A program made the position numbers and the translations under genes. Below, piece after piece: positions 8,487 to 19,635 of a DNA stretch of 64,000 nt (within the stretch, counting starts at the first letter, position 1; each line of letters starts with the position of its first letter). Under the pieces are notes generated by a model. That model worked only from the letters and a program-made list of their open reading frames with translations. It ran no database searches and had not been told where the DNA came from. Source of the stretch: Pseudomonadota bacterium (GTDB lineage Bacteria; Pseudomonadota; Alphaproteobacteria; Rhodobacterales; Rhodobacteraceae); assembly GCA_039193455.1 (NCBI GenBank), contig JBCCWO010000012.1, positions 5,311-69,310 of the forward strand. Reading direction: 5' to 3'.

Positions 8487-8562
<76 letters not shown>

Positions 8563-11602: not shown

Positions 11603-14473
11603 CTACTCTGCCGCGTCCAGATACTCCTCTAGCGGCGGACAGGTGCAGACGAGGTGCCGGTCGCCATAGACATTGTCGACCCGGTTGACCGGCGGCCAGT
11701 ACTTATCCACCCGGAACGCCCCCGCAGGATAGCACCCCACTTCGCGGGAATAGGGCCGGTCCCAGTCGCCCACCAGATCCTCGACCGTATGAGGCGCGCG
11801 TTTCAGCGGGTTGTTTTCGGCATCCACCTCACCCGCTTCGATCTGGCGGATCTCTTCGCGGATGGCGAGCATCGCGTCGCAGAACCGGTCCAGCTCGGCC
11901 TTGGTCTCGCTCTCGGTCGGCTCGACCATCAGGGTCCCGGCGATGGGCCAGCTCATGGTGGGCGCGTGAAACCCGTTATCGATCAGGCGCTTGGCGATAT
12001 CGTCAACGGTCGCACCCGCCTCGGCGAAGGGCCGGGTGTCGAGGATACATTCATGCGCAATCCAGCCCGCCTTGCCGGTGAACAGGATGTCATAGGCCCC
12101 CTCCAGCCGCTTGGCGATGTAGTTGGCGTTCAGGATCGCGACCCGCGTCGCCTGGGTCAGCCCCTCACCGCCCATCATGAGCACATAGGCCCAGGAGATC
12201 GGCAGGATCGAGGCCGAGCCAAAGGGCGCCGCCGCCACCGGCCCCTCGCGCCCACCGGTTTCGGGATGGCCGGGCAGGAACGGGGCGAGGTGATGCTTCA
12301 CACCGATGGGCCCCATGCCCGGGCCGCCGCCGCCGTGGGGGATGCAGAAGGTCTTGTGCAGGTTCAGGTGGCTCACATCGGCGCCGATCTCACCCGGTTT
12401 GACAAGCCCCACCAGCGCGTTGAGGTTCGCGCCATCCAGATAGACCTGCCCCCCATTGGCATGGGTGATCGCGCAGACCTCGCGCACGGTTTCCTCGAAC
12501 ACGCCATGGGTCGAGGGATAGGTGATCATGCAGGCGGCCAGATTGTCGCCTGCCGCCGCCGCCTTGGCCCGGAAATCCAGCAGATCGATGTCGCCATTGG
12601 CCGCCGACTGGACCACGACCACCTCCATCCCGGCCATCTGGGCCGAGGCCGGGTTGGTTCCATGGGCAGACACCGGGATCAGGCAGATATTGCGATGCCC
12701 TTCCCCCCGCGCGCGGTGATAGGCCGCGATGGTCAGAAGCCCCGCATATTCGCCCTGCGCGCCCGAATTCGGCTGCATCGACATCGCGTCATAGCCGGTG
12801 ATCTCACACAGCTTCGCCTCAAGATCGGCGATCATCTCGTGATACCCCGCCACCTGATCGGCAGGCGCAAAGGGATGCAGGTTCGCAAAATCCGGCCAGG
12901 TGATCGGCATCATCTCGGCCGCGGAGTTGAGCTTCATCGTGCAGGACCCCAGCGGGATCATCGCGCGATCCAGCGCCAGATCCCGGTCGGCGAGCCGACG
13001 CATATAGCGCATCATCTCGGTCTCGGCGCGGTTGTGGTGAAAGGTCGGGTGGGTGAGGTAGTCGGTGTCCCGCACCAGCCCCTCGGGCACGCGGTGGTAG
13101 TCGGCGGGAAAGTCATCGCGGCTGTGGCTGAGGCCAAAGGCCCGCCAGACCCCTTCCAAGACGGCGGGGCGGATCGTCTCATCCACCGTGATGCCAATCT
13201 TCGTCTCGCCCACCTTACGAAAGTTGATCCGCTCGCGCCGCCCGGCCTCGAGGATCACACCCTGCAGTGATCCGACCTCGACCGTTAAGGTGTCAAAGAA
13301 GTGTTCCGGCTCAATGGTATAACCACCGGCCTCCAGCCCGCGGGCCAGCCGGTCGGTCTTGCGATGGATGCGTTGCGCAATCGCCTTCAGCCCCTTCGGC
13401 CCGTGGAACACCGCATAAAACGACGCCATCACCGCCAGCAACGCCTGCGCGGTACACACGTTCGATGTCGCCTTTTCGCGGCGGATATGTTGTTCGCGCG
13501 TTTGCAGCGACAGCCGGTAGGCCTTGTTGCCCCGCGCATCCACCGACACGCCGACCAGCCGCCCGGGCAGCGCGCGCTTATAGGCATCGCGGCAGGCCAT
13601 ATAGGCGGCATGGGGCCCGCCAAAGCCCAGGGGCACGCCAAAGCGCTGGGTCGAGCCCACGGCGATATCGGCGCCCATCGCGCCCGGTTCCTTCAGGAGC
13701 GTCAGCATCAGCGGATCGGCAATCACGATCCCGATGGCCTTCGCCGCATGTAGCGCCGCAATCTCATCGGTGAAATCGCGCAGATGCCCGTAGGTCCCCG
13801 GATACTGGAAGATCGCGCCGAACACCGCCCCTGGCTCCAGGTCCTCTGGCGCGCCCACGATCACCTCGATCCCAAGCGGCGCCGCGCGGGTCTGCATCAC
13901 CTCGATGTTTTGTGGATGGCAGTTCTCATCGACAAAGAACGCGGTGGCTTTCGACTTCGCCACCCGCTGCGCCATGGTCATCGCCTCGGCCGCCGCCGTC
14001 GACTCGTCGAGAAGCGAGGCATTGGCCACCTCCAGCCCGGTCAGATCGCTCACCATCGTCTGGTAGTTGAGCAAGGCCTCAAGCCGCCCCTGGCTGATCT
14101 CGGGCTGATAGGGCGTGTAGGCGGTGTACCATGCCGGGTTCTCAAGGATATTGCGCTGGATCGCCGGCGGCGTGACCGTGCCGTGATAGCCCTGCCCGAT
14201 CATGGTGGTGAAGATGGTGTTCTTCTGCGCCACCTGCCGCATCCGCCAGATCAGTTCCCGCTCGGACAGGGGTTTGCCGAAATCAAGCGGGGTCTCTTGC
14301 CGGATATCTGCGGGGATCGTCTGGTCAATCAGCTGGTCCAGACCATCGACGCCGATCACCTTGAACATCTCGGCCATCTCTTCGGGCGAGGGCCCGATAT
14401 GGCGACGATTGGCAAAGTCGTAAGGCAGGTAATCGGTCGGCTCGAATGCCATCTCAGCTCTCCTCAGGGGCAC
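11603..14473 (-). CDS. gcvP: Glycine dehydrogenase (decarboxylating), P protein
   Basis: 956 aa single-chain P protein in a gcvT-gcvH-gcvP context. Confidence 0.95.
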
Positions 14474-14484
14474 GCGGCCCGCAT

Positions 14485-14527
14485 CCTCTTTGGTCCAAAA
14501 ATATCCCCGCCGGAGGCACTCGCCCCC
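14485..14527 (-). repeat. REP-like intergenic repeat, copy C (fills the gcvH-gcvP spacer)
   Basis: The reverse complement GGGGGCGAGTGCCTCCGGCGGGGATATTTTTGGACCAAAGAGG belongs to the repeat family. Positions 14487-14519 match 63757-63788 at all but one position. Confidence 0.65.
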
Positions 14528-14537
14528 GCGGCAATGT

Positions 14538-14897
14538 TCACCCGATGAAGTCCTTGTAGGCGTCTTCGTCCATCATCTTGTCCATCTCGCCCAGATCCTC
14601 GGCCTTGATCTTGAAGAACCATGCGTCGCCGGTCGGATCCTCGTTCACGAGCGCCGGATTGTCGGCCAGCGCCTCGTTCACCGCGACGATCTCACCATCG
14701 AGGGGGGCAAGAATGTCGGAGGCGGCCTTGACGCTTTCGATCACCACGATCTCATCGCCCTTGGCGACCTGCGTCTCAAGCTCTGGCAGTTCGACAAACA
14801 CCACATCGCCCAGCTGTTCGCTGGCATGTTCGGTGATCCCGACAACCACGACATCCCCATCGACGCGCAGCCATTCATGGTCTTCGGTGTATTTCAT
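14538..14897 (-). CDS. gcvH: Glycine cleavage system H protein
   Basis: [15 protein letters not shown]..., lipoyl-lysine motif [17 protein letters not shown] before ATG 14897. Confidence 0.95.
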
Positions 14898-14910: not shown

Positions 14911-16035
14911 TTATCGTTTGAAATTTGCTGGTGTGAACGGCATCGGCGCCACCGTCGCCGGCAGGCGTTTACCGCGCACCTCACCGTAAACCGTTGTCCC
15001 GGTCGCAGAATGCGGCGCGGTGACATAGGCCATGGACATTGGCCCCTCGATCGTGGGCCCAAAGGCGCCCGAGGTCACGACGCCGACCTCGGCACCGTCT
15101 GCGCCAAAGATCACCGTGCCCGCCCGCATCGGCGCGCGGCCCTCGGGGCGCAGGCCCACGCGTTTGCGCGCCGCGCCGTCCGCCATCTCGCCCAGAATGC
15201 GCGCGGCCCCGGGAAAGCCGCCCGCGCGGTCGCCGCCGGCACGCCGCACCTTTTGGATGGCCCAGGTCAGCCCGGCCTCCACCGGGCTGGTCGTCGCGTC
15301 GATGTCGCTGCCGTACAGGCACAGCCCCGCCTCCAGCCGCAGCGAGTCGCGCGCGCCAAGGCCAATCGGCGCAACCTCCTCCATCGCCAGAAGCGCCTGC
15401 GCGAAACCCGTGGCCTCGGCCCCGGGCACCGAGATCTCGAACCCGTCTTCCCCGGTATAGCCCGAGCGTGACACCCAGATCTCCCCGCCCGCCAGCGGGA
15501 TCACGGCCACGTCCATGAACCGCATATCGGTCACCTCCGGCGCGATCCGCGCCAGCGCGGTTTCAGCCTGCGGGCCCTGCAACGCCAGAAGCGCACGGTC
15601 CGTCACCTCGATCACCTCGCAGGTGTCGCCCAGTCCGGCCTGCATCCGCGCCAGATCCGCCGCCTTGCAGGCCGCATTCACCACGACAAACAGATGGTCG
15701 CCCCGGTTGGCGACCATCAGATCATCCTCGATCCCGCCTGAGTCATTGGTAAAGAAGGCATAGCGCTGCCGCCCCTCGGCCAGCCCCAGCACATCCACCG
15801 GCACGAGCGTCTCGAACGCCCGCGCGGCATCGGCCACGTCGCCAGACCGGGGGCGCAGGATCACCTGCCCCATGTGGCTGACGTCAAACAGGCCCGCTGC
15901 CCCCCGGCAGTGCAGATGCTCCTTCATCACGCCAAGCGGGTATTGCACGGGCATCTCATAGCCCGCGAAGGGCACCATCTTGGCGTCCAGCTCCAGATGC
16001 AGGTTATACAGCCCTGTGCGCTTCAGATCGGCCAT
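14911..16035 (-). CDS. gcvT: Aminomethyltransferase, T protein
   Basis: [32 protein letters not shown]... Start at ATG 16035. The longer ORF to 16191 runs through the riboswitch remnant. Confidence 0.95.
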
Positions 16036-16130
16036 GGTCGCTCCCGTCTTATACCGGGGTCCAGGCCGCCCGGCACCGTTCCAGGCGCGTGATCCGCGCC
16101 CGCCGATGCCCCCTCTGTCCTTCTGCCTGA
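16036..16130 (-). promoter_or_regulatory. gcvT leader: 3' end of glycine riboswitch aptamer II (UCAGGCAGAAGGACAGAG) plus expression platform
   Basis: Minus strand 16130->16113 reads TCAGGCAGAAGGACAGAG, the conserved 3' core and P1 strand of a glycine aptamer. The 5' part of that aptamer is absent locally. Confidence 0.7.
16123..16130. repeat. 8-bp direct repeat CTGCCTGA, left junction of the islet
   Basis: An identical 8-mer sits at 18837-18844. Both copies are the riboswitch core sequence UCAGGCAG on the minus strand. Confidence 0.7.
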
Positions 16131-16284
16131 TATTGCCACTATTGAGCGAAATCAGCAGGTTGGGTTGGCTAACCCATGAGAGAGCACCCAAAGTGTTCCA
16201 ACGGCTTTTTCAGATATGGCTAACCGATTGTCTAGCCATCTCGCCTGCGATGTGCAGGCTATCAACCATGCACAGGAGAGACGC

Positions 16285-16749
16285 ATGACGAAAGACCCCT
16301 TCGACTTCTCGGACCTTTCGGACCTCCCGGAAGAACTCCAGAAGAAGCTCAACACCGAAACGCAGGACCGTGCATCCGAGTTCGCCGCAGTCGTCATCAA
16401 GGGCGCTGAGGCAGGTCACGATCAGCTAACCATCAACCACATCATTGCCGCTGCTACGCGGATGGGGATGGACATTCCCTCTCAGCAGACTGTTCGGGGA
16501 TACCTGAACAAGGCAGTCGATATGGGCCTCATCTCGAAGCCCACTCGCCAAACCTACGGCCTGCCCAGCAAGCGCAGCCGGAAGGAGGACGCGGGCCTTG
16601 AGGGAGACGGCGATGCTGTTGTGACCTCCGAGGTGGAAGCACCCGTGGATGAGCCCGTGGTTGCGGAGACCATCACCGAAGCCAACGCGGCTGAGCCGGT
16701 GGAACTCCAGGCTAAGACCGACAACACGGACCCGCTCGCGGACCTATAA
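16285..16749 (+). CDS. Hypothetical protein (possible winged-helix N-terminus, acidic disordered C-terminus)
   Basis: AGGAGAG RBS before ATG 16285 and a terminator hairpin downstream. No family recognised. Confidence 0.55.
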   Translation: MTKDPFDFSDLSDLPEELQKKLNTETQDRASEFAAVVIKGAEAGHDQLTINHIIAAATRMGMDIPSQQTVRGYLNKAVDMGLISKPTRQTYGLPSKRSRKEDAGLEGDGDAVVTSEVEAPVDEPVVAETITEANAAEPVELQAKTDNTDPLADL

Positions 16750-16805
16750 TACCTGACCACCACTCAGGGTAGCGGACAGACGCCAAAGGCGCACCGCTAA
16801 CGCAA

Positions 16806-16839
16806 GGCTCTCTCCAGATCGGAGGGGGCCTTTTTCTTT
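16806..16839 (+). terminator. Rho-independent terminator
   Basis: GGCTCTCTCC-AGATC-GGAGGGGGCC (10-bp stem including two G:U pairs) followed by TTTTTCTTT. Confidence 0.6.
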
Positions 16840-16867
16840 GACCGGCTGACACCCGAGGAAACCCCGA

Positions 16868-17362
16868 ATGAAACGTATCATCTTTGCGACCGCCGCTCTG
16901 GCGGCCCTTTCGGCATGCGCCATCCCCAACACGCAACCTCAGCCCATTGACGCCTGCATCACCGGCTCTGTTGAGTTCCGGAAATCAGGCCAGTGCGTTG
17001 ACTGGAAGACCGTGACATCCACCGAGACCGTCGAAGAGGTTCGCGCCCGTGGCGTGTCCGATGGCTCGATCCACTCCAAGGACAATCTAACCAGCATGGG
17101 CAACGCTGCCTCTGATGGCGCGGAGATCGTCCGGGTCCGCTCGACCCAGCCACAGACCGTATCGCTGCGTGAAGCGGGTGGCGGTACGACCACAATCGAA
17201 GTCGATGCTGGCGACACGCTGGTGGAAGTCTCCGATGGCGCGACTGTCATCGCCGAGTTCCAAGGCTCCGGTGCCAAGAAGACCAAGGCGACCGGGAACC
17301 AGACCTTCAATGACGTGACCGAGGTTGAGGTAACGACCTCCACCCGCGTTCGGGAGGACTGA
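16868..17362 (+). CDS. Lipoprotein, unknown function
   Basis: Signal peptide with lipobox MKRIIFATAALAALSAC. Confidence 0.65.
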   Translation: MKRIIFATAALAALSACAIPNTQPQPIDACITGSVEFRKSGQCVDWKTVTSTETVEEVRARGVSDGSIHSKDNLTSMGNAASDGAEIVRVRSTQPQTVSLREAGGGTTTIEVDAGDTLVEVSDGATVIAEFQGSGAKKTKATGNQTFNDVTEVEVTTSTRVRED

Positions 17363-17365
17363 TCT

Positions 17366-17608
17366 ATGGCCCACGCTGTTCTCTCTGACGCGGAGCAGAA
17401 ACTGCCGCGCCGCATTCGCCGTGCCCTCCTGGCTGATCGCCGCCGCACGGTGAAGAAGCACACGCCGTTTGGTCGGGTGAAGGTACTCGACCTTGAGAGT
17501 GGAGTGGAGCCTCAAGACGACCGCGTTGTCTACCGGCACTTCACCAAGGGTGTCATGGACCGACGCACCACGTTCCCGCTGCTCGACAACCTCATCTCGA
17601 TTGGGTGA
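17366..17608 (+). CDS. Hypothetical protein (80 aa)
   Basis: Starts 4 nt after the upstream stop and is in operon packing. No family recognised. Confidence 0.45.
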   Translation: MAHAVLSDAEQKLPRRIRRALLADRRRTVKKHTPFGRVKVLDLESGVEPQDDRVVYRHFTKGVMDRRTTFPLLDNLISIG

Positions 17609-17612
17609 GGCC

Positions 17613-17822
17613 ATGAAGAGCGAGCCAGCAATCTTCATCCGCAAGGAAACCGCAGACGTAATCGCTTCTGGCCTGCTGGGCCGGATCAGCGACCTCGTGG
17701 CCTACGCAGTCCGTCCGCATAAGCGGCGCGGGGAGATGCAGGGCTACACCGTGAGCCTGCGCTACCGGTGCGGAAACATCCACACACTGACGGAGCAAAC
17801 CGTTGAGCAGATAGGAGCCTGA
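17613..17822 (+). CDS. Hypothetical protein (69 aa)
   Basis: ATG 17613 is preceded by GGTGAGG. Tightly packed with its neighbours. Confidence 0.45.
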   Translation: MKSEPAIFIRKETADVIASGLLGRISDLVAYAVRPHKRRGEMQGYTVSLRYRCGNIHTLTEQTVEQIGA

Positions 17823-17825
17823 CCA

Positions 17826-18620
17826 ATGAGGCCCATTACACATCTCTATGCCCCGTTCCCCGTGATTGACACAAAACGCGGAACGGGACGAACGACCCTG
17901 ATGCTGGTGGATGCATTCCACGAGGCGAAGAACGGAACTTCTGTGTTCGTCCTGTTCCCCACCCACGCACTAGCTAGACATGCGGCCTCTCAATTCGAGG
18001 ACACGTTCCGTTGTACCGTTTATTCCAACCTACTCATAGGCGTAGGTAACCCAGCACGGGAAGTGGAGCGATACCGGATGAAGAACCCGGACGGTATCCA
18101 CACATGGACTGAGGCCGAGATACGCAAGTTTCAGGAGAGATGGCCCGAAGGTACAACAGCAGACCTCGTCATAGCGCTGATGCTCTATACTGGCGCGGCC
18201 CGATCTGACGCGGTGCAGCTTGGCCCTCGGAACATCAAGGACGGGCGCTTGCAGTATGAGCGTCAGAAGATGAAGGGGCGCGATGGTGTTCTAGTGGACA
18301 TCCCACTGCACCCCGAGCTACAGCGGAGACTAGAGCCACTGATGGATCAGGACACCTTCCTCCAGACTGACTGGGGAAAGCCACGATCCGCGAACGGCCT
18401 GACGCAGAGCATACGTGGGTGGGTTGAAGCGGCGAAGCTTCCGCACTGCACGTCACACGGACTGCGTAAGGCGTGCGCCAGACGGCTTGCAGAAGCAGGG
18501 GCCACGCCCCACTAGATCATGTCCGTCACCGGACACAAGACCCTGGGTGAGGTCGCAAGGTACACTCAGAAGGTGCAGCGGGCTGGTCTCGCAGACAGCG
18601 CCATAGAGAGGATTAAATGA
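17826..18620 (+). pseudogene. Tyrosine recombinase (phage integrase family) remnant: 5'-truncated, chimeric and interrupted by TAG at 18513
   Basis: From about aa 75, GNPAREVERYRMKNPDGIHTWTEAEIRKF..TGAARSD..HGLRKACARR matches an integrase catalytic domain. After TAG 18513-18515 the same frame continues IMSVTGHKTLGEVARYT (His and catalytic Tyr) to TGA 18618-18620. Confidence 0.8.
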
Positions 18621-18817
18621 GGTTCATCTGGCCGATCATTCTGTTCATAGCCGGATTGGAAATCTGGAACCGGATAGTATTGCCGATGGACCTAGACGCA
18701 GACGTTGTCGGTCCACTCATCATGGCAGTTGCGGTGATCTGGATGGTGCTTCTATTGGCTAACCTACGCAAAAGGTTAGCCAGCAGTGAGCCGCAAGACA
18801 CTGACAAACAAGGCTAA
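18617..18817 (+). CDS. Small two-TM membrane protein (66 aa)
   Basis: GAGAGGA RBS. The ATG overlaps the ancestral integrase stop (ATGA). Two hydrophobic helices. Confidence 0.5.
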   Translation: MRFIWPIILFIAGLEIWNRIVLPMDLDADVVGPLIMAVAVIWMVLLLANLRKRLASSEPQDTDKQG

Positions 18818-18836
18818 CCGCACTCTAACTCACAAC

Positions 18837-18886
18837 CTGCCTGAGATCGTTATCCCTTCGGCGCCCCGTCCGGGGTCTCTCCAGAG
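18837..18886 (-). promoter_or_regulatory. Glycine riboswitch aptamer II, 5' two thirds only (truncated by the islet)
   Basis: Minus strand: CUCUGGAGAG ACCCC-GGAC-GGGG CGCCGAAGGGAUAA CGAUCUCAGGCAG, followed by unrelated islet sequence. Confidence 0.8.
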
Positions 18887-18897
18887 TGTCGATGCCC

Positions 18898-18988
18898 GCG
18901 ACGGTCCCTGGGCCTGAGAGTTTACCGGGGCGGTTGCTCCTTCGGCATCGGGTCCCAAACAGATCGGGCGCCCGAATTCTCCCGTCGC
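18898..18988 (-). promoter_or_regulatory. Glycine riboswitch aptamer I (complete)
   Basis: Minus strand: P1 GCGACGG...CCGTCGC, GGGAGAA, UCGGGC/GCCCGA hairpin, UGCCGAAGGAGCAA, CUCUCAGGCCCAGGGAC. Confidence 0.8.
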
Positions 18989-19068
18989 TGACCCTTTCTC
19001 GTTACTGCCAAACCGCGCGCCCGACAAGGGGTTGCGTTGCACGGCGCGGGCCACCACAGAGGGGACCC

Positions 19069-19635
19069 ATGCAAGACCCCTATTTCTTTGGCTATGGCAG
19101 CCTGGTGAACCGCGCGACCCATGCGCATGACAATGCCCATCCCGCCACCGTGCGCGGCTGGCGGCGGATCTGGCGGCACACCGACCTGCGCCCTGTGGCC
19201 TTTCTGACCGTCGTGCCCGCGCCGGGGGCCGAGATTGACGGGTTGATCGCCGCGGTGCCGGGGGCCGATTGGATGGCGCTTGATGAACGCGAACGGGCCT
19301 ATGACCGGGTCAATGCCGCCGAGGTCGCCCATCCCCTGCTCCACGCGCCGCAAGTGCAGATCTATACAATCCCCGAGGGCAAGCACGGCACGCCCGACCG
19401 CGCGCATCCCGTTTTGCTCAGCTATATCGACACGGTCGTGCAGGGCTTTCTCAACGAGTTCGGGGAAGAGGGTGTGGCCCGCTTCTTTGCCACCACCGAT
19501 GGCTGGGACGCGCCCATCGCCCAGGACCGCAAGGCCCCGCGCTATGCCCGGCATCAAAGCCTGTCGCGGCGGGAAACGGCTCTGGTCGACCGCCATCTCG
19601 ACGACTTAGCGGCGCAGGTGCAAGAGGCTCGTTAA
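19069..19635 (+). CDS. Gamma-glutamylcyclotransferase-like (AIG2/GGCT fold) protein
   Basis: N-terminal YFFGYGSL motif. AGAGGGGA RBS before ATG 19069. Confidence 0.65.
   Translation: MQDPYFFGYGSLVNRATHAHDNAHPATVRGWRRIWRHTDLRPVAFLTVVPAPGAEIDGLIAAVPGADWMALDERERAYDRVNAAEVAHPLLHAPQVQIYTIPEGKHGTPDRAHPVLLSYIDTVVQGFLNEFGEEGVARFFATTDGWDAPIAQDRKAPRYARHQSLSRRETALVDRHLDDLAAQVQEAR

What the first reader, a model, noticed from the sequence alone, without database searches (positions are those of the whole stretch)
16113..18988. A 2.7 kb integrase-bearing islet sits inside aptamer II of the tandem glycine riboswitch that should control gcvTHP
All reads below are on the minus strand.
- 18988->18898 is a complete glycine aptamer: P1 GCGACGG...CCGTCGC, GGGAGAA, UGCCGAAGGAGCAA, CUCUCAGGCCCAGGGAC.
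- After an 11-nt linker, 18886->18837 is the 5' two thirds of a second aptamer: CUCUGGAGAG, hairpin CCCC-GGAC-GGGG, CGCCGAAGGGAUAA, CUCAGGCAG. It then breaks off into unrelated, AT-richer sequence.
- The missing 3' end, AAGGACAGAG, lies 2.7 kb away at 16122->16113, about 77 nt upstream of the gcvT ATG. It completes the conserved CUCAGGCA..AAGGAC core and closes P1 (CUCUG/CAGAG).
- That 3' end is preceded by a second copy of UCAGGCAG. On the plus strand this is CTGCCTGA at 16123-16130 and 18837-18844.
- Deleting one repeat copy plus 16131-18836 in silico rebuilds a textbook tandem riboswitch directly in front of gcvT.

The interposed DNA carries plus-strand genes and an integrase remnant at its right end. 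This fits site-specific integration with an 8-bp crossover/duplication.

Consequence: the presumed promoter, aptamer I and most of aptamer II now fire antisense into the islet. gcvTHP and the downstream COX-like gene keep only the expression platform. Glycine cleavage must therefore be silent, constitutive, driven by an islet-borne promoter, or dependent on 2.7 kb of antisense read-through. I do not know of a described case of a mobile element splitting a riboswitch aptamer core.
Basis: partly seen in the sequence, partly recalled or inferred. Interest (0 to 1): 0.9.

Follow-up and report, generated by a model that had tools for sequence, protein, structure and literature searches.

The report
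Mobile islet splits a glycine riboswitch
A small, now-defunct integrase-carrying mobile element has inserted into the second glycine-sensing domain of the RNA switch that normally controls the glycine-cleavage genes; a near-identical wild relative still has the intact switch, so this is a genuine natural uncoupling of a riboswitch from its operon.

Summary
Aptamer I is intact (RF00504, 60 bits). Aptamer II is cut in its J3/1 junction. Its 5' two thirds lie at 18889->18837 and its 3' end AAGGACAGAG lies at 16122->16113. An 8-bp direct repeat (CTGCCTGA) flanks 2,706 bp of lower-GC DNA.

A metagenomic contig from a ~97%-identical strain (L088) carries the predicted empty site. It is 264/266 identical to the in-silico join and has one repeat copy. 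Its aptamer II scores 48.3 bits, against 13.5 bits for the truncated native copy.

An independent single-run assembly (L109) reproduces both junctions at 100% identity.

The islet is a decayed member of a family of small tyrosine-integrase elements. Its two ends align with a contiguous attP region in the closest relative (L089). All five GGTTAGCC motifs in the window sit at its ends. Relatives target the 3' end of tRNA-Met; this one sits in a riboswitch.

The integrase lacks its N-terminal domain and has an in-frame TAG, so the insertion is fixed.

The functional outcome is inferred, not shown. gcvTHP is uncoupled from glycine sensing but remains intact and under purifying selection.

The case is interesting but is a single event: a new variant of a known kind.

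The parts
18892..18994 (-). Glycine riboswitch aptamer I, intact
   Evidence: RF00504 at 60 bits, gathering score 32, full model 1-94
18837..18889 (-). Aptamer II, 5' two thirds: P1 5' strand CUCUG, P2 hairpin, P3, up to CUCAGGCAG
   Evidence: Local RF00504 hit of 13.5 bits. Aligns with aptamer II of 9 relatives and of L088.
18815..18889 (-). Hybrid 'aptamer II*': the host 5' part closed by islet-derived UAGAGUG pairing with CACUCUG. The conserved GGAC junction is missing.
   Evidence: RF00504 at 25.3 bits, below the gathering score of 32, model 6-94, E 0.0015 for that 99-nt search
18837..18844 (.). Aptamer-side copy of the 8-bp crossover repeat CTGCCTGA (att core)
   Evidence: L088 maps across it with an 8-bp overlap.
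16123..16130 (.). gcvT-side copy of the 8-bp crossover repeat CTGCCTGA
16113..16122 (-). Displaced 3' end of aptamer II: J3/1 AAGGA plus P1 3' strand CAGAG
   Evidence: Invariant GGACAGAG block in the relatives. Pairs with CUCUG in 10 of 10 sequences.
16036..16112 (-). Remaining leader or expression platform, including the conserved hairpin GGCAUCG (16110-16104) / CGGUGCC (16078-16072) and the GGGAG Shine-Dalgarno sequence
   Evidence: The hairpin is kept with compensatory changes in the relatives
16131..18836 (+). Islet body, 2,706 bp, 58.9% GC, all ORFs on the plus strand
   Evidence: Absent from L088. Reproduced at 100% identity in the independent assembly L109.
16167..16225 (-). Two GGTTAGCC motifs (16167-16174 and 16218-16225), taken as arm-type sites of the gcvT-side arm
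   Evidence: All 5 copies in 64 kb lie at the islet ends, against 0.77 expected. Same positions as in the L089 attP.
18757..18819 (.). Three GGTTAGCC motifs: an inverted pair at 18757-18764(-) and 18774-18781(+), plus 18812-18819(-). These form the integrase-side arm.
   Evidence: The inverted pair with a 9-10 nt spacer also follows the integrase genes of relatives L084-L087, L089 and L091.
16285..16749 (+). orf154, first gene after the att site, with no family match
   Evidence: N-terminus is 68% identical to the ORF that follows attP in L089. No Pfam, PHROG or NCBIfam hit.
16868..17362 (+). Predicted lipoprotein, 164 aa (cargo)
   Evidence: Lipobox signal LPAM_1, E 8e-4
17366..17822 (+). Two small ORFs (80 aa and 69 aa) of unknown function
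   Evidence: No family hits.
17826..18047 (+). 74-codon Walker-A / helicase-like fragment fused in frame to the integrase remnant
   Evidence: Sub-threshold DEAD/ResIII hits. Integrase homology starts only at residue 75.
18048..18617 (+). Tyrosine-integrase pseudogene. Only the catalytic domain is present. An in-frame TAG at 18516-18518 precedes the catalytic-Tyr motif (ARYT).
   Evidence: PF00589, E 1.1e-8. Translation. The 32 codons after the TAG are still 78% identical to L089. Full-length homologues are 306-320 aa.
18617..18817 (+). orf66, a small hydrophobic ORF between the integrase and the att core
14911..16035 (-). gcvT, intact, 374 aa
   Evidence: GCV_T and GCV_T_C domains. Full-length matches to relatives.
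11603..14897 (-). gcvH (14538-14897) and gcvP (11603-14473), both intact
   Evidence: The GcvH protein is identical in two other assemblies. Across gcvT, gcvH and gcvP, synonymous changes far outnumber non-synonymous ones against ~96-97% identical strains.

Best explanation
**Shown.** A small integrative element that uses a tyrosine recombinase inserted by site-specific recombination at the 8-bp sequence UCAGGCAG. This sequence covers the 3' end of P3 and the first two nucleotides of J3/1 in aptamer II of the tandem glycine riboswitch that precedes gcvTHP. The 8 bp were duplicated.

The insertion separates two blocks by 2.7 kb. One block holds the promoter, aptamer I and the P1-5'/P2/P3 part of aptamer II. 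The other holds the J3/1-GGAC core, the P1 3' strand, the expression platform and gcvTHP.

The element belongs to a family whose other members integrate at the 3' end of tRNA-Met. Its attP arms are conserved with theirs, but its crossover core differs.

**Shown for the defects, inferred for their timing.** The integrase lost its N-terminal DNA-binding domains through a deletion or fusion, and it acquired a TAG codon before the catalytic tyrosine. The islet can therefore no longer excise on its own, and the split is permanent.

**Inferred.** Glycine can no longer control gcvTHP through this riboswitch. The gcv genes are intact and evolving under purifying selection. They are therefore most likely still expressed without regulation, from a weak islet-borne or read-through transcript that carries only the orphan platform.

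Aptamer I and the hybrid aptamer II* now head an antisense transcript into the islet.
For: - **Empty site.** L088 maps to window 20008->18837 and then 16130->15999 with an 8-bp overlap. It is 264/266 identical to the join.
- **Aptamer scores.** Aptamer II scores 48.3 bits when contiguous. It scores 13.5 bits when truncated and 25.3 bits as the hybrid.
- **Relatives.** Nine relatives have the halves contiguous, and covariation supports the fold.
- **Not an artefact.** An independent assembly, L109, is 100% identical across both junctions.
- **Element ends.**
  - All five GGTTAGCC copies lie at the ends.
  - The reconstructed attP aligns block by block with the L089 region that runs from int through attP to the orf154 homologue.
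  - At the corresponding position L089 carries 19 nt of the tRNA-Met 3' end.
  - L090 and L091 sit next to the 3' end of tRNA-Met, and L084 next to a tRNA 3' end of similar sequence that ARAGORN did not call.
- **Integrase defects.**
- **Composition.** GC is 58.9% against 65-66%.
- **gcv genes.**
  - The gcv ORFs are intact.
  - Against L081 there are 46 synonymous and 4 non-synonymous codon differences.
  - Against L082 there are 30 and 3.
Against: - Only 8 bp (11 with one mismatch) are shared between the element and the target, against 19 bp in the tRNA-Met relative. The riboswitch may therefore be a secondary site rather than the cognate one.
- No attP form or second copy of this exact element was found.
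- No integrase closer than 65% identity exists in the protein collection other than the window's own copy.
- No promoter-like site was detected anywhere in 15900-19200. This includes the region where the native riboswitch promoter must lie, so the scan is uninformative. The source of gcvTHP transcription remains unknown.
- There are no expression data.
- The purifying-selection signal integrates over the whole divergence between strains. It does not isolate the period since the insertion.
Confidence: 0.9

Rival explanations
1. Secondary-site integration. The element's cognate attB is something else, such as a tRNA or another gene containing ...GGCAAUAUCAGGCAGGUUGUGAG.... The riboswitch merely happened to contain the 8-bp overlap sequence. 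The event would then be an accidental, mildly deleterious or neutral insertion that became trapped when the integrase decayed. This is a sub-hypothesis of the best explanation, not an alternative to integration.
For: - Relatives use the tRNA-Met 3' end with a 19-bp identity block. Here the identity is only 8 bp.
- The last base of the GGCN motif, inside the core, varies among relatives' riboswitches (A, G, C or T in A1). The exact 8-mer is therefore not a broadly conserved target.
- None of the other gcvT leaders with a recognisable tandem riboswitch among the 80 loci examined is split.
Against: - The attP core of this element shows no tRNA-like sequence.
- The islet end carries a 7-bp complement to the P1 5' strand. 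This raises the hybrid to 25.3 bits. My rough, post hoc estimate of the chance of this is about 0.01. It is what one expects if attP retains a degenerate copy of the target's 3' part, as tRNA-targeting elements do.
Confidence: 0.55
2. Cognate riboswitch targeting. This integrase lineage switched from tRNA-Met to the conserved core of the glycine aptamer as its normal attB. It exploits a conserved structured-RNA sequence in the way other integrases exploit tRNA, tmRNA or 4.5S RNA genes. Its attP carries a partial mimic of the displaced 3' end.
For: - The geometry matches that of tRNA-targeting relatives. The RNA element reads towards int, the crossover lies in its 3' third, and the element supplies a replacement 3' strand.
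- The core lies in the most conserved CUCAGGC block of the aptamer.
Against: - There is one occurrence only.
- The identity block is short.
- The replacement lacks the conserved GGAC junction, so it does not restore a canonical aptamer (25.3 bits, below the gathering score of 32).
- No related element was found at a riboswitch.
Confidence: 0.25
3. Assembly or binning artefact. The islet was wrongly stitched into the gcvT leader of a metagenome-assembled genome.
For: The source is a MAG. P0001 is named by NCBI as a MAG protein and lies on a 94-kb contig.
Against: - A chimeric join would not create an 8-bp target duplication, which is below assembler k-mer size.
- It would not create two ends that reconstitute a family-typical attP.
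- A separate single-run Logan assembly gives the same 2,918 bp across both junctions at 100% identity.
Confidence: 0.02
4. Reversible genetic switch (regulated gene integrity, or active lysogeny). The element excises under some condition and restores glycine control of gcvTHP.
For: Both att copies are perfect, and precise excision would restore a functional tandem riboswitch, as L088 shows.
Against: - The integrase lacks its N-terminal domains and has a stop codon before the catalytic Tyr.
- No excisionase-like gene was identified.
- No paralogous integrase is present in the 64-kb window.
Confidence: 0.04

Closest known systems
Genomic islands and prophages that integrate into the 3' end of tRNA genes. 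The element's own relatives do this at tRNA-Met (L089 attP; L090 and L091 integrated).
   Same: - The integrase clade is the same (58-65% identity in the catalytic domain).
- The attP architecture is the same: int, then an inverted GGCTAACC/GGTTAGCC pair, then the core, then GAAATCAG, then two GGCTAACC motifs, then orf154.
- The geometry relative to a structured-RNA target that reads towards int is the same.
- A short direct repeat flanks the element.
   Different: - The target is a cis-regulatory riboswitch aptamer, not a tRNA gene.
- The identity block is 8 bp, not 19 bp.
- The target is not functionally restored, because the GGAC junction is missing and the platform is displaced by 2.7 kb.
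Phage phiEf11 attachment site within ffs, the 4.5S RNA gene (PMC12540744), and tmRNA-gene targeting
   Same: A conserved structured non-coding RNA sequence is used as the integration site.
   Different: Those targets are stable RNA genes, and the phage usually regenerates them. Here a regulatory leader is split, and its sensor is cut off from its output.
Gene-splitting integrative elements such as skin in sigK and the comK prophage of Listeria ('regulated gene integrity'; from my own knowledge, not tested here)
   Same: An integrase-bearing element interrupts a functional unit, and precise excision would restore it.
   Different: Those elements have working recombinases and excise on cue. This one is doubly pseudogenised and interrupts an RNA aptamer, not an ORF.
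Laboratory transposon insertions in the B12 riboswitch upstream of metE in M. tuberculosis (PMC3603451)
   Same: Insertion of mobile DNA into a riboswitch leader abolishes ligand control of the downstream gene.
   Different: - Those insertions were made experimentally, by random transposition.
- That riboswitch is an OFF switch, so disruption derepresses the gene.
- The present case is a natural site-specific integration into what is presumed to be an ON switch, so the sign of the effect is not obvious.
Singlet glycine riboswitches with a 'ghost aptamer' (Ruff et al. 2016, RNA; from my own knowledge, not tested here)
   Same: One complete aptamer is followed by a degenerate partner that keeps helices but lacks the ligand-binding core. 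This resembles aptamer I plus the hybrid II* described here.
   Different: Ghost aptamers are evolved, conserved and connected to an expression platform. The hybrid here is an accident of integration with no known platform downstream.

Membership tests
Tandem glycine riboswitch (two RF00504 aptamers, gcvT leader) | A first aptamer that passes the Rfam gathering score | tested here: met
   60 bits against a gathering score of 32, at 18892-18994(-)
Tandem glycine riboswitch (two RF00504 aptamers, gcvT leader) | A second, contiguous aptamer with P1 closed and the GGAC junction present | tested here: not met
   - Native truncated copy: 13.5-bit local hit.
- Hybrid closed by islet sequence: 25.3 bits, below 32.
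- Empty-site allele L088: 48.3 bits, which meets the criterion.
Tandem glycine riboswitch (two RF00504 aptamers, gcvT leader) | Aptamers immediately upstream of the regulated gene and joined to its expression platform | tested here: not met
   - Aptamer I ends 2.86 kb from the gcvT ATG.
- In L088 and nine relatives the whole leader is at most about 270 nt.
Tyrosine-recombinase integrative element (genomic islet) | Encodes a tyrosine integrase next to one end | tested here: met
   PF00589, E 1.1e-8. The gene ends about 220 bp from the att core. It is a pseudogene, with an N-terminal truncation and an in-frame TAG.
Tyrosine-recombinase integrative element (genomic islet) | Flanked by direct repeats that correspond to the crossover core | tested here: met
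   CTGCCTGA at 16123-16130 and 18837-18844
Tyrosine-recombinase integrative element (genomic islet) | A precise empty site with one repeat copy in a close relative | tested here: met
   L088, 96.7-97.7% identical flanks, 8-bp overlap
Tyrosine-recombinase integrative element (genomic islet) | Arm-type repeats and attP organisation shared with relatives | tested here: met
   - All five GGTTAGCC copies lie at the ends.
- The joined ends align with the L089 attP region.
- Binding by the integrase is inferred, not tested.
Tyrosine-recombinase integrative element (genomic islet) | Demonstrated mobility of this element (attP form or other copies) | tested here: not met
   - No attP match in viral contigs, the window or the fetched loci.
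tRNA-Met-targeting integrase clade (L089, L090, L091, L084-like) | Integration at, or an attP identity block to, the 3' end of a tRNA-Met gene | tested here: not met
   - The reconstructed attP core has no tRNA-Met sequence.
- The only tRNA in the window is tRNA-Ala, about 7.6 kb away.
Reversible gene-splitting elements (regulated gene integrity) | A functional recombinase able to excise the element | tested here: not met
   - There is an in-frame stop before the catalytic Tyr, and the N-terminal domains are missing.
- No paralogue is present in the window.

The most novel reading that the evidence does not exclude
This integrase lineage has retargeted from tRNA-Met to the conserved core of the glycine riboswitch aptamer as its normal attachment site. 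Its attP carries a partial mimic of the aptamer's 3' end, the P1-closing UAGAGUG. Integration therefore creates an intact aptamer I plus a ghost-like hybrid aptamer II* that heads an antisense transcript into the element. In this way the element captures a glycine-responsive promoter and sensor for itself while stripping it from gcvTHP. Riboswitches would then join tRNA, tmRNA and 4.5S RNA genes as a class of structured-RNA att sites.
Probability: 0.15. Interest if true: 0.8.

Novelty: new variant of a known kind. Interest (0 to 1): 0.5.

Why it matters
Riboswitch aptamers are among the most conserved non-coding sequences in bacteria. In principle they are as attractive as tRNA genes for site-specific integrases, yet six full-text searches found no natural case of one being split by an integrative element.

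This locus gives a clean natural before-and-after pair, with filled and empty alleles at about 97% identity. In the filled allele a tandem glycine riboswitch is physically disconnected from gcvTHP while the operon stays intact. This raises two testable questions:
- Can a glycine-cleavage operon dispense with glycine sensing?
- Can aptamer I still bind glycine next to a hybrid partner that lacks the GGAC core? This bears on the long debate over why glycine riboswitches are tandem.

It also shows an integrase clade changing target class. On the practical side, annotation pipelines would report this genome as having a normal glycine riboswitch (one hit above the gathering score) and would miss the fact that it no longer controls anything.

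Tried and rejected
- **Direct CM scoring of the join.** It was replaced by scoring the natural empty-site contig L088, which is 99% identical to the join.
- **Exact-protein look-ups.**
  - GcvT and P0001 found nothing.
  - GcvH found only 1.2-1.4 kb contigs that do not reach the leader.
- **DNA comparison of the islet.** Searches against the phage and plasmid collections gave no match. PHROGs, NCBIfam and relaxed Pfam searches on the cargo ORFs gave nothing usable.
- **Viral-contig scans.**
  - The scan for the reconstructed attP gave 0 hits.
  - The scan for the conserved 5' block of aptamer II gave 0 hits.
  - The scan for the inverted arm pair gave 17 hits.
  - Only two of those lie next to distant (39%) integrases, and none lies near a riboswitch.
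- **Promoter scan.** No sigma-70-like site was found anywhere in 15900-19200, including where the native promoter must be. The scan is therefore uninformative for this organism.
- **Single-sequence MFE folding.** Folds of the join, the orphan platform and the native upstream RNA did not reproduce the aptamer folds and were not used.
- **Integrase homologues.** P0004 and P0007 were checked for riboswitch fragments and none were found. P0007 sits next to a tRNA 3' end.
- **Assembly artefact.** Rejected because of L109 and the att architecture.
- **IS6110 precedent.** I half-remembered a natural IS6110 insertion in the M. tuberculosis B12 riboswitch. The paper I read supports only laboratory transposon insertions.

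Full report
**1. Checking the observation**

- Rfam finds one glycine aptamer above threshold, at 18994->18892 (RF00504, 60 bits, gathering score 32).
- Eleven nucleotides downstream come CUCUGGAGAG, a CCCC/GGGG hairpin and CGCCGAAGGGAUAACGAUCUCAGGCAG, ending at 18837.
- This stretch alone gives only a 13.5-bit local hit to model positions 20-75.
- UCAGGCAG recurs at 16130->16123. It is followed by AAGGACAGAG (16122->16113), and the gcvT ATG lies 77 nt further on, at 16035.
- The 8-mer is the longest repeat shared by the two junction regions.

**2. Does the join make a riboswitch?**

I could not feed an artificial sequence to Infernal, so I used two substitutes.

*Relatives.* I fetched gcvT loci from 80 genomes and aligned the in-silico join with the leaders of the nine closest Paracoccaceae-like relatives (A1).
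- The join aligns column for column.
- ...CGCCGAAGGGAUAACGAUCUCAGGCN and NAAGGACAGAGGGGGCAUCG are contiguous in five relatives.
- In four relatives they are separated by a 10-35 nt extra hairpin at exactly this junction.
- RNAalifold on A1 recovers both aptamers. P1 of aptamer II (CUCUG/CAGAG) is kept in 10 of 10 sequences, P2 shows compensatory changes, and a conserved hairpin follows aptamer II.

*A natural empty site.* A metagenome scan with the species-specific 46-mer from the 5' part of aptamer II returned one contig, L088 (ENA ERZ1740058).
- L088 maps to window 20008->18837 at 96.7% identity.
- It then jumps to 16130->15999 at 97.7% identity, with an 8-bp overlap.
- It is 264/266 identical to the join and carries a single CTGCCTGA.
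- On L088, Rfam's tandem model RF03166 spans both aptamers (55 bits, below that model's gathering score of 110, E 2e-10).
- Aptamer II alone scores 48.3 bits on RF00504, well above the gathering score.

**3. Is the insertion real?**

The source is a metagenome-assembled genome, so an artefact had to be considered. An exact-protein look-up of two islet ORFs found a Logan single-run assembly, L109 (SRR22824305). It is 100% identical to window 15950-18867 and spans both junctions. Together with the target duplication and the att architecture described below, this excludes a chimeric join.

**4. What the islet is**

It is 2,706 bp at 58.9% GC, against 65-66% in the flanks. All its ORFs are on the plus strand.

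*The integrase.* The last long ORF (17826-18515) carries a tyrosine-integrase catalytic domain (PF00589, E 1.1e-8). It is defective in two ways.
- Homology to relatives begins only at residue 75. The first 74 residues are a helicase-like Walker-A fragment.
- An in-frame TAG at 18516-18518 precedes ...GHKTLGEVARYT.... These remaining 32 codons are still 78% identical to the closest homologue.
- Full-length homologues are 306-320 aa.

*The ends.* All five copies of GGTTAGCC in the 64-kb window lie within about 100 bp of the islet ends, against 0.77 copies expected.

*The closest relative.* The closest integrase other than the window's own copy is P0002, at 65% identity. It lies on a 1.3-kb contig, L089, in this order:
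1. the integrase gene;
2. an inverted GGCTAACC-N10-GGTTAGCC pair;
3. 19 nt of the 3' end of tRNA-Met;
4. GAAATCAG;
5. two more GGCTAACC motifs;
6. a homologue of the islet's first ORF, 68% identical.

This is an attP arrangement. When I join the islet's right end to its left end, the result aligns block by block with L089. The CTGCCTGA core falls where L089 has its tRNA-Met block.

*Other relatives.* L090 and L091 sit next to the 3' end of tRNA-Met, and L084 sits next to a tRNA 3' end of similar sequence that ARAGORN did not call. L090's element also encodes a NikA/MobC-like protein. The family therefore looks like small integrative, possibly mobilisable, elements.

*Cargo.* The cargo here is a lipoprotein and three small ORFs with no family match.

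**5. Mechanism**

*Shown.* A tyrosine-recombinase element recombined at UCAGGCAG, which is the end of the P3 3' strand plus two nucleotides of J3/1 in aptamer II. The recombination duplicated the 8 bp. The sensor (promoter, aptamer I and most of aptamer II) is now separated from the actuator (GGAC junction, P1 3' strand, platform hairpin and Shine-Dalgarno sequence) and from gcvTHP.

*Shown for the defects, inferred for their timing.* The integrase subsequently decayed, so the element is immobile.

*Inferred.* Glycine control of gcvTHP is lost.

*State of the gcv genes.* They are intact.
- Against strains about 96-97% identical, L081 gives 46 synonymous and 4 non-synonymous codon differences. 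L082 gives 30 and 3.
- GcvH is identical at the protein level.
- The operon has therefore been under purifying selection.
- I infer that it is still expressed, most likely constitutively at a low level from within the islet or by read-through.

The promoter scan found nothing. It also missed the native promoter, so it says little.

**6. An unexpected detail**

The islet sequence just inside the aptamer-side junction reads GUUGUGAGUUAGAGUG. UAGAGUG pairs with CACUCUG, the 5' strand of aptamer II's P1.
- Scanned on its own, the native 18889->18815 segment scores 25.3 bits on RF00504. P1 is closed by islet sequence and the AAGGAC junction is replaced.
- This is below the gathering score but well above the 13.5 bits of the bare stump.
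- My rough, post hoc estimate of the chance of such a 7-bp complement within about 20 nt is 0.01.
- It may be coincidence. It may instead be a degenerate remnant of a longer attP-attB homology, as tRNA-targeting elements carry.
- In the second case the riboswitch could be this lineage's cognate target.

**7. Cognate or accidental target?**

*For an accident.*
- The identity block is only 8 bp, against 19 bp in L089.
- One position within the core varies among relatives' riboswitches.
- None of the other gcvT leaders with a recognisable tandem riboswitch among the 80 loci examined is split.
- No sibling element was found.

*For a cognate target.*
- The geometry is the same as at tRNA genes.
- The islet end carries the P1 mimic.

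I put the accident at about 0.55 and the cognate target at about 0.25. The decisive searches, of genomes and metagenomes for the attP core and for other split aptamers, were beyond the remaining caps.

**8. Comparison with what is known**

- Integration into conserved structured-RNA genes is classical. Examples are tRNA, tmRNA and recently ffs (PMC12540744).
- Gene-splitting elements that excise on cue are known.
- Laboratory transposon insertions in the M. tuberculosis metE B12 riboswitch abolish regulation (PMC3603451).
- Six full-text searches found no natural case of an integrative element inside a riboswitch aptamer. This is absence from a partial library, not proof.

I file the finding as a new variant of a known kind. 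The integration mechanism is familiar. The target class is unusual, and the sensor-actuator split it produces is clean.

**9. Verdict**

- The interpretation as a site-specific insertion is supported with high confidence (0.9).
- The functional consequence is inferred only.
- Interest is moderate (0.5). The case has a matched empty allele and an intriguing hybrid aptamer. However, it is a single, fixed event in an uncultured organism.

Noticed in passing
L002:7835-7930, L003, L004, L007 (alignment A1, columns 189-216): Four relatives carry a 10-35 nt extra hairpin in aptamer II exactly where the islet is inserted here, between CUCAGGCN and AAGGAC. This J3/1 position therefore tolerates natural insertions. 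L002 also reads AUAGAC instead of AAGGAC.
   Followed up: partly
L001-L007, L010, L071 versus L088:1115-1190: In gathering mode Rfam reports only one glycine aptamer per leader in all nine relatives. Yet the second aptamer scores 48 bits when scanned alone, and the tandem model RF03166 spans both at 55-71 bits. Standard annotation therefore under-calls the tandem architecture in this clade. It would also not flag the split seen here.
   Followed up: partly
window 18815-18836 (-): The islet-derived UAGAGUG pairs with the P1 5' strand of aptamer II. This gives a 25.3-bit hybrid aptamer that lacks the GGAC junction. It may be chance, or it may be an attP remnant of target mimicry.
   Followed up: partly
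L089:880-1307: A 1.3-kb metagenomic contig (JGI 3300036046) shows the closest relative in attP configuration. An integrase gene is followed by a 19-nt tRNA-Met 3' block and then the orf154 homologue. This suggests a circular or excised form of a small element family.
   Followed up: partly
L109 (window 15950-18867): The independent Logan contig ends 31 nt beyond the last islet-specific base on the aptamer side. From memory, this is about that assembler's k-mer size. It could reflect a graph branch caused by co-occurring filled and empty alleles in run SRR22824305, although the other junction is traversed without a break.
   Followed up: no
window 19069-19635 (+): A ChaC/GGACT-like gamma-glutamylcyclotransferase gene is transcribed divergently from the riboswitch promoter region. 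The same neighbour is present in the empty-site contig L088.
   Followed up: no
window 8487-8562 (-): tRNA-Ala(CGC) is the only tRNA in the window. It is not associated with the islet.
   Followed up: no
window 16804-16832 (+): A strong terminator-like hairpin follows orf154 inside the islet. On the opposite strand it has no T-tract, so it would not obviously stop antisense read-through towards gcvT.
   Followed up: no
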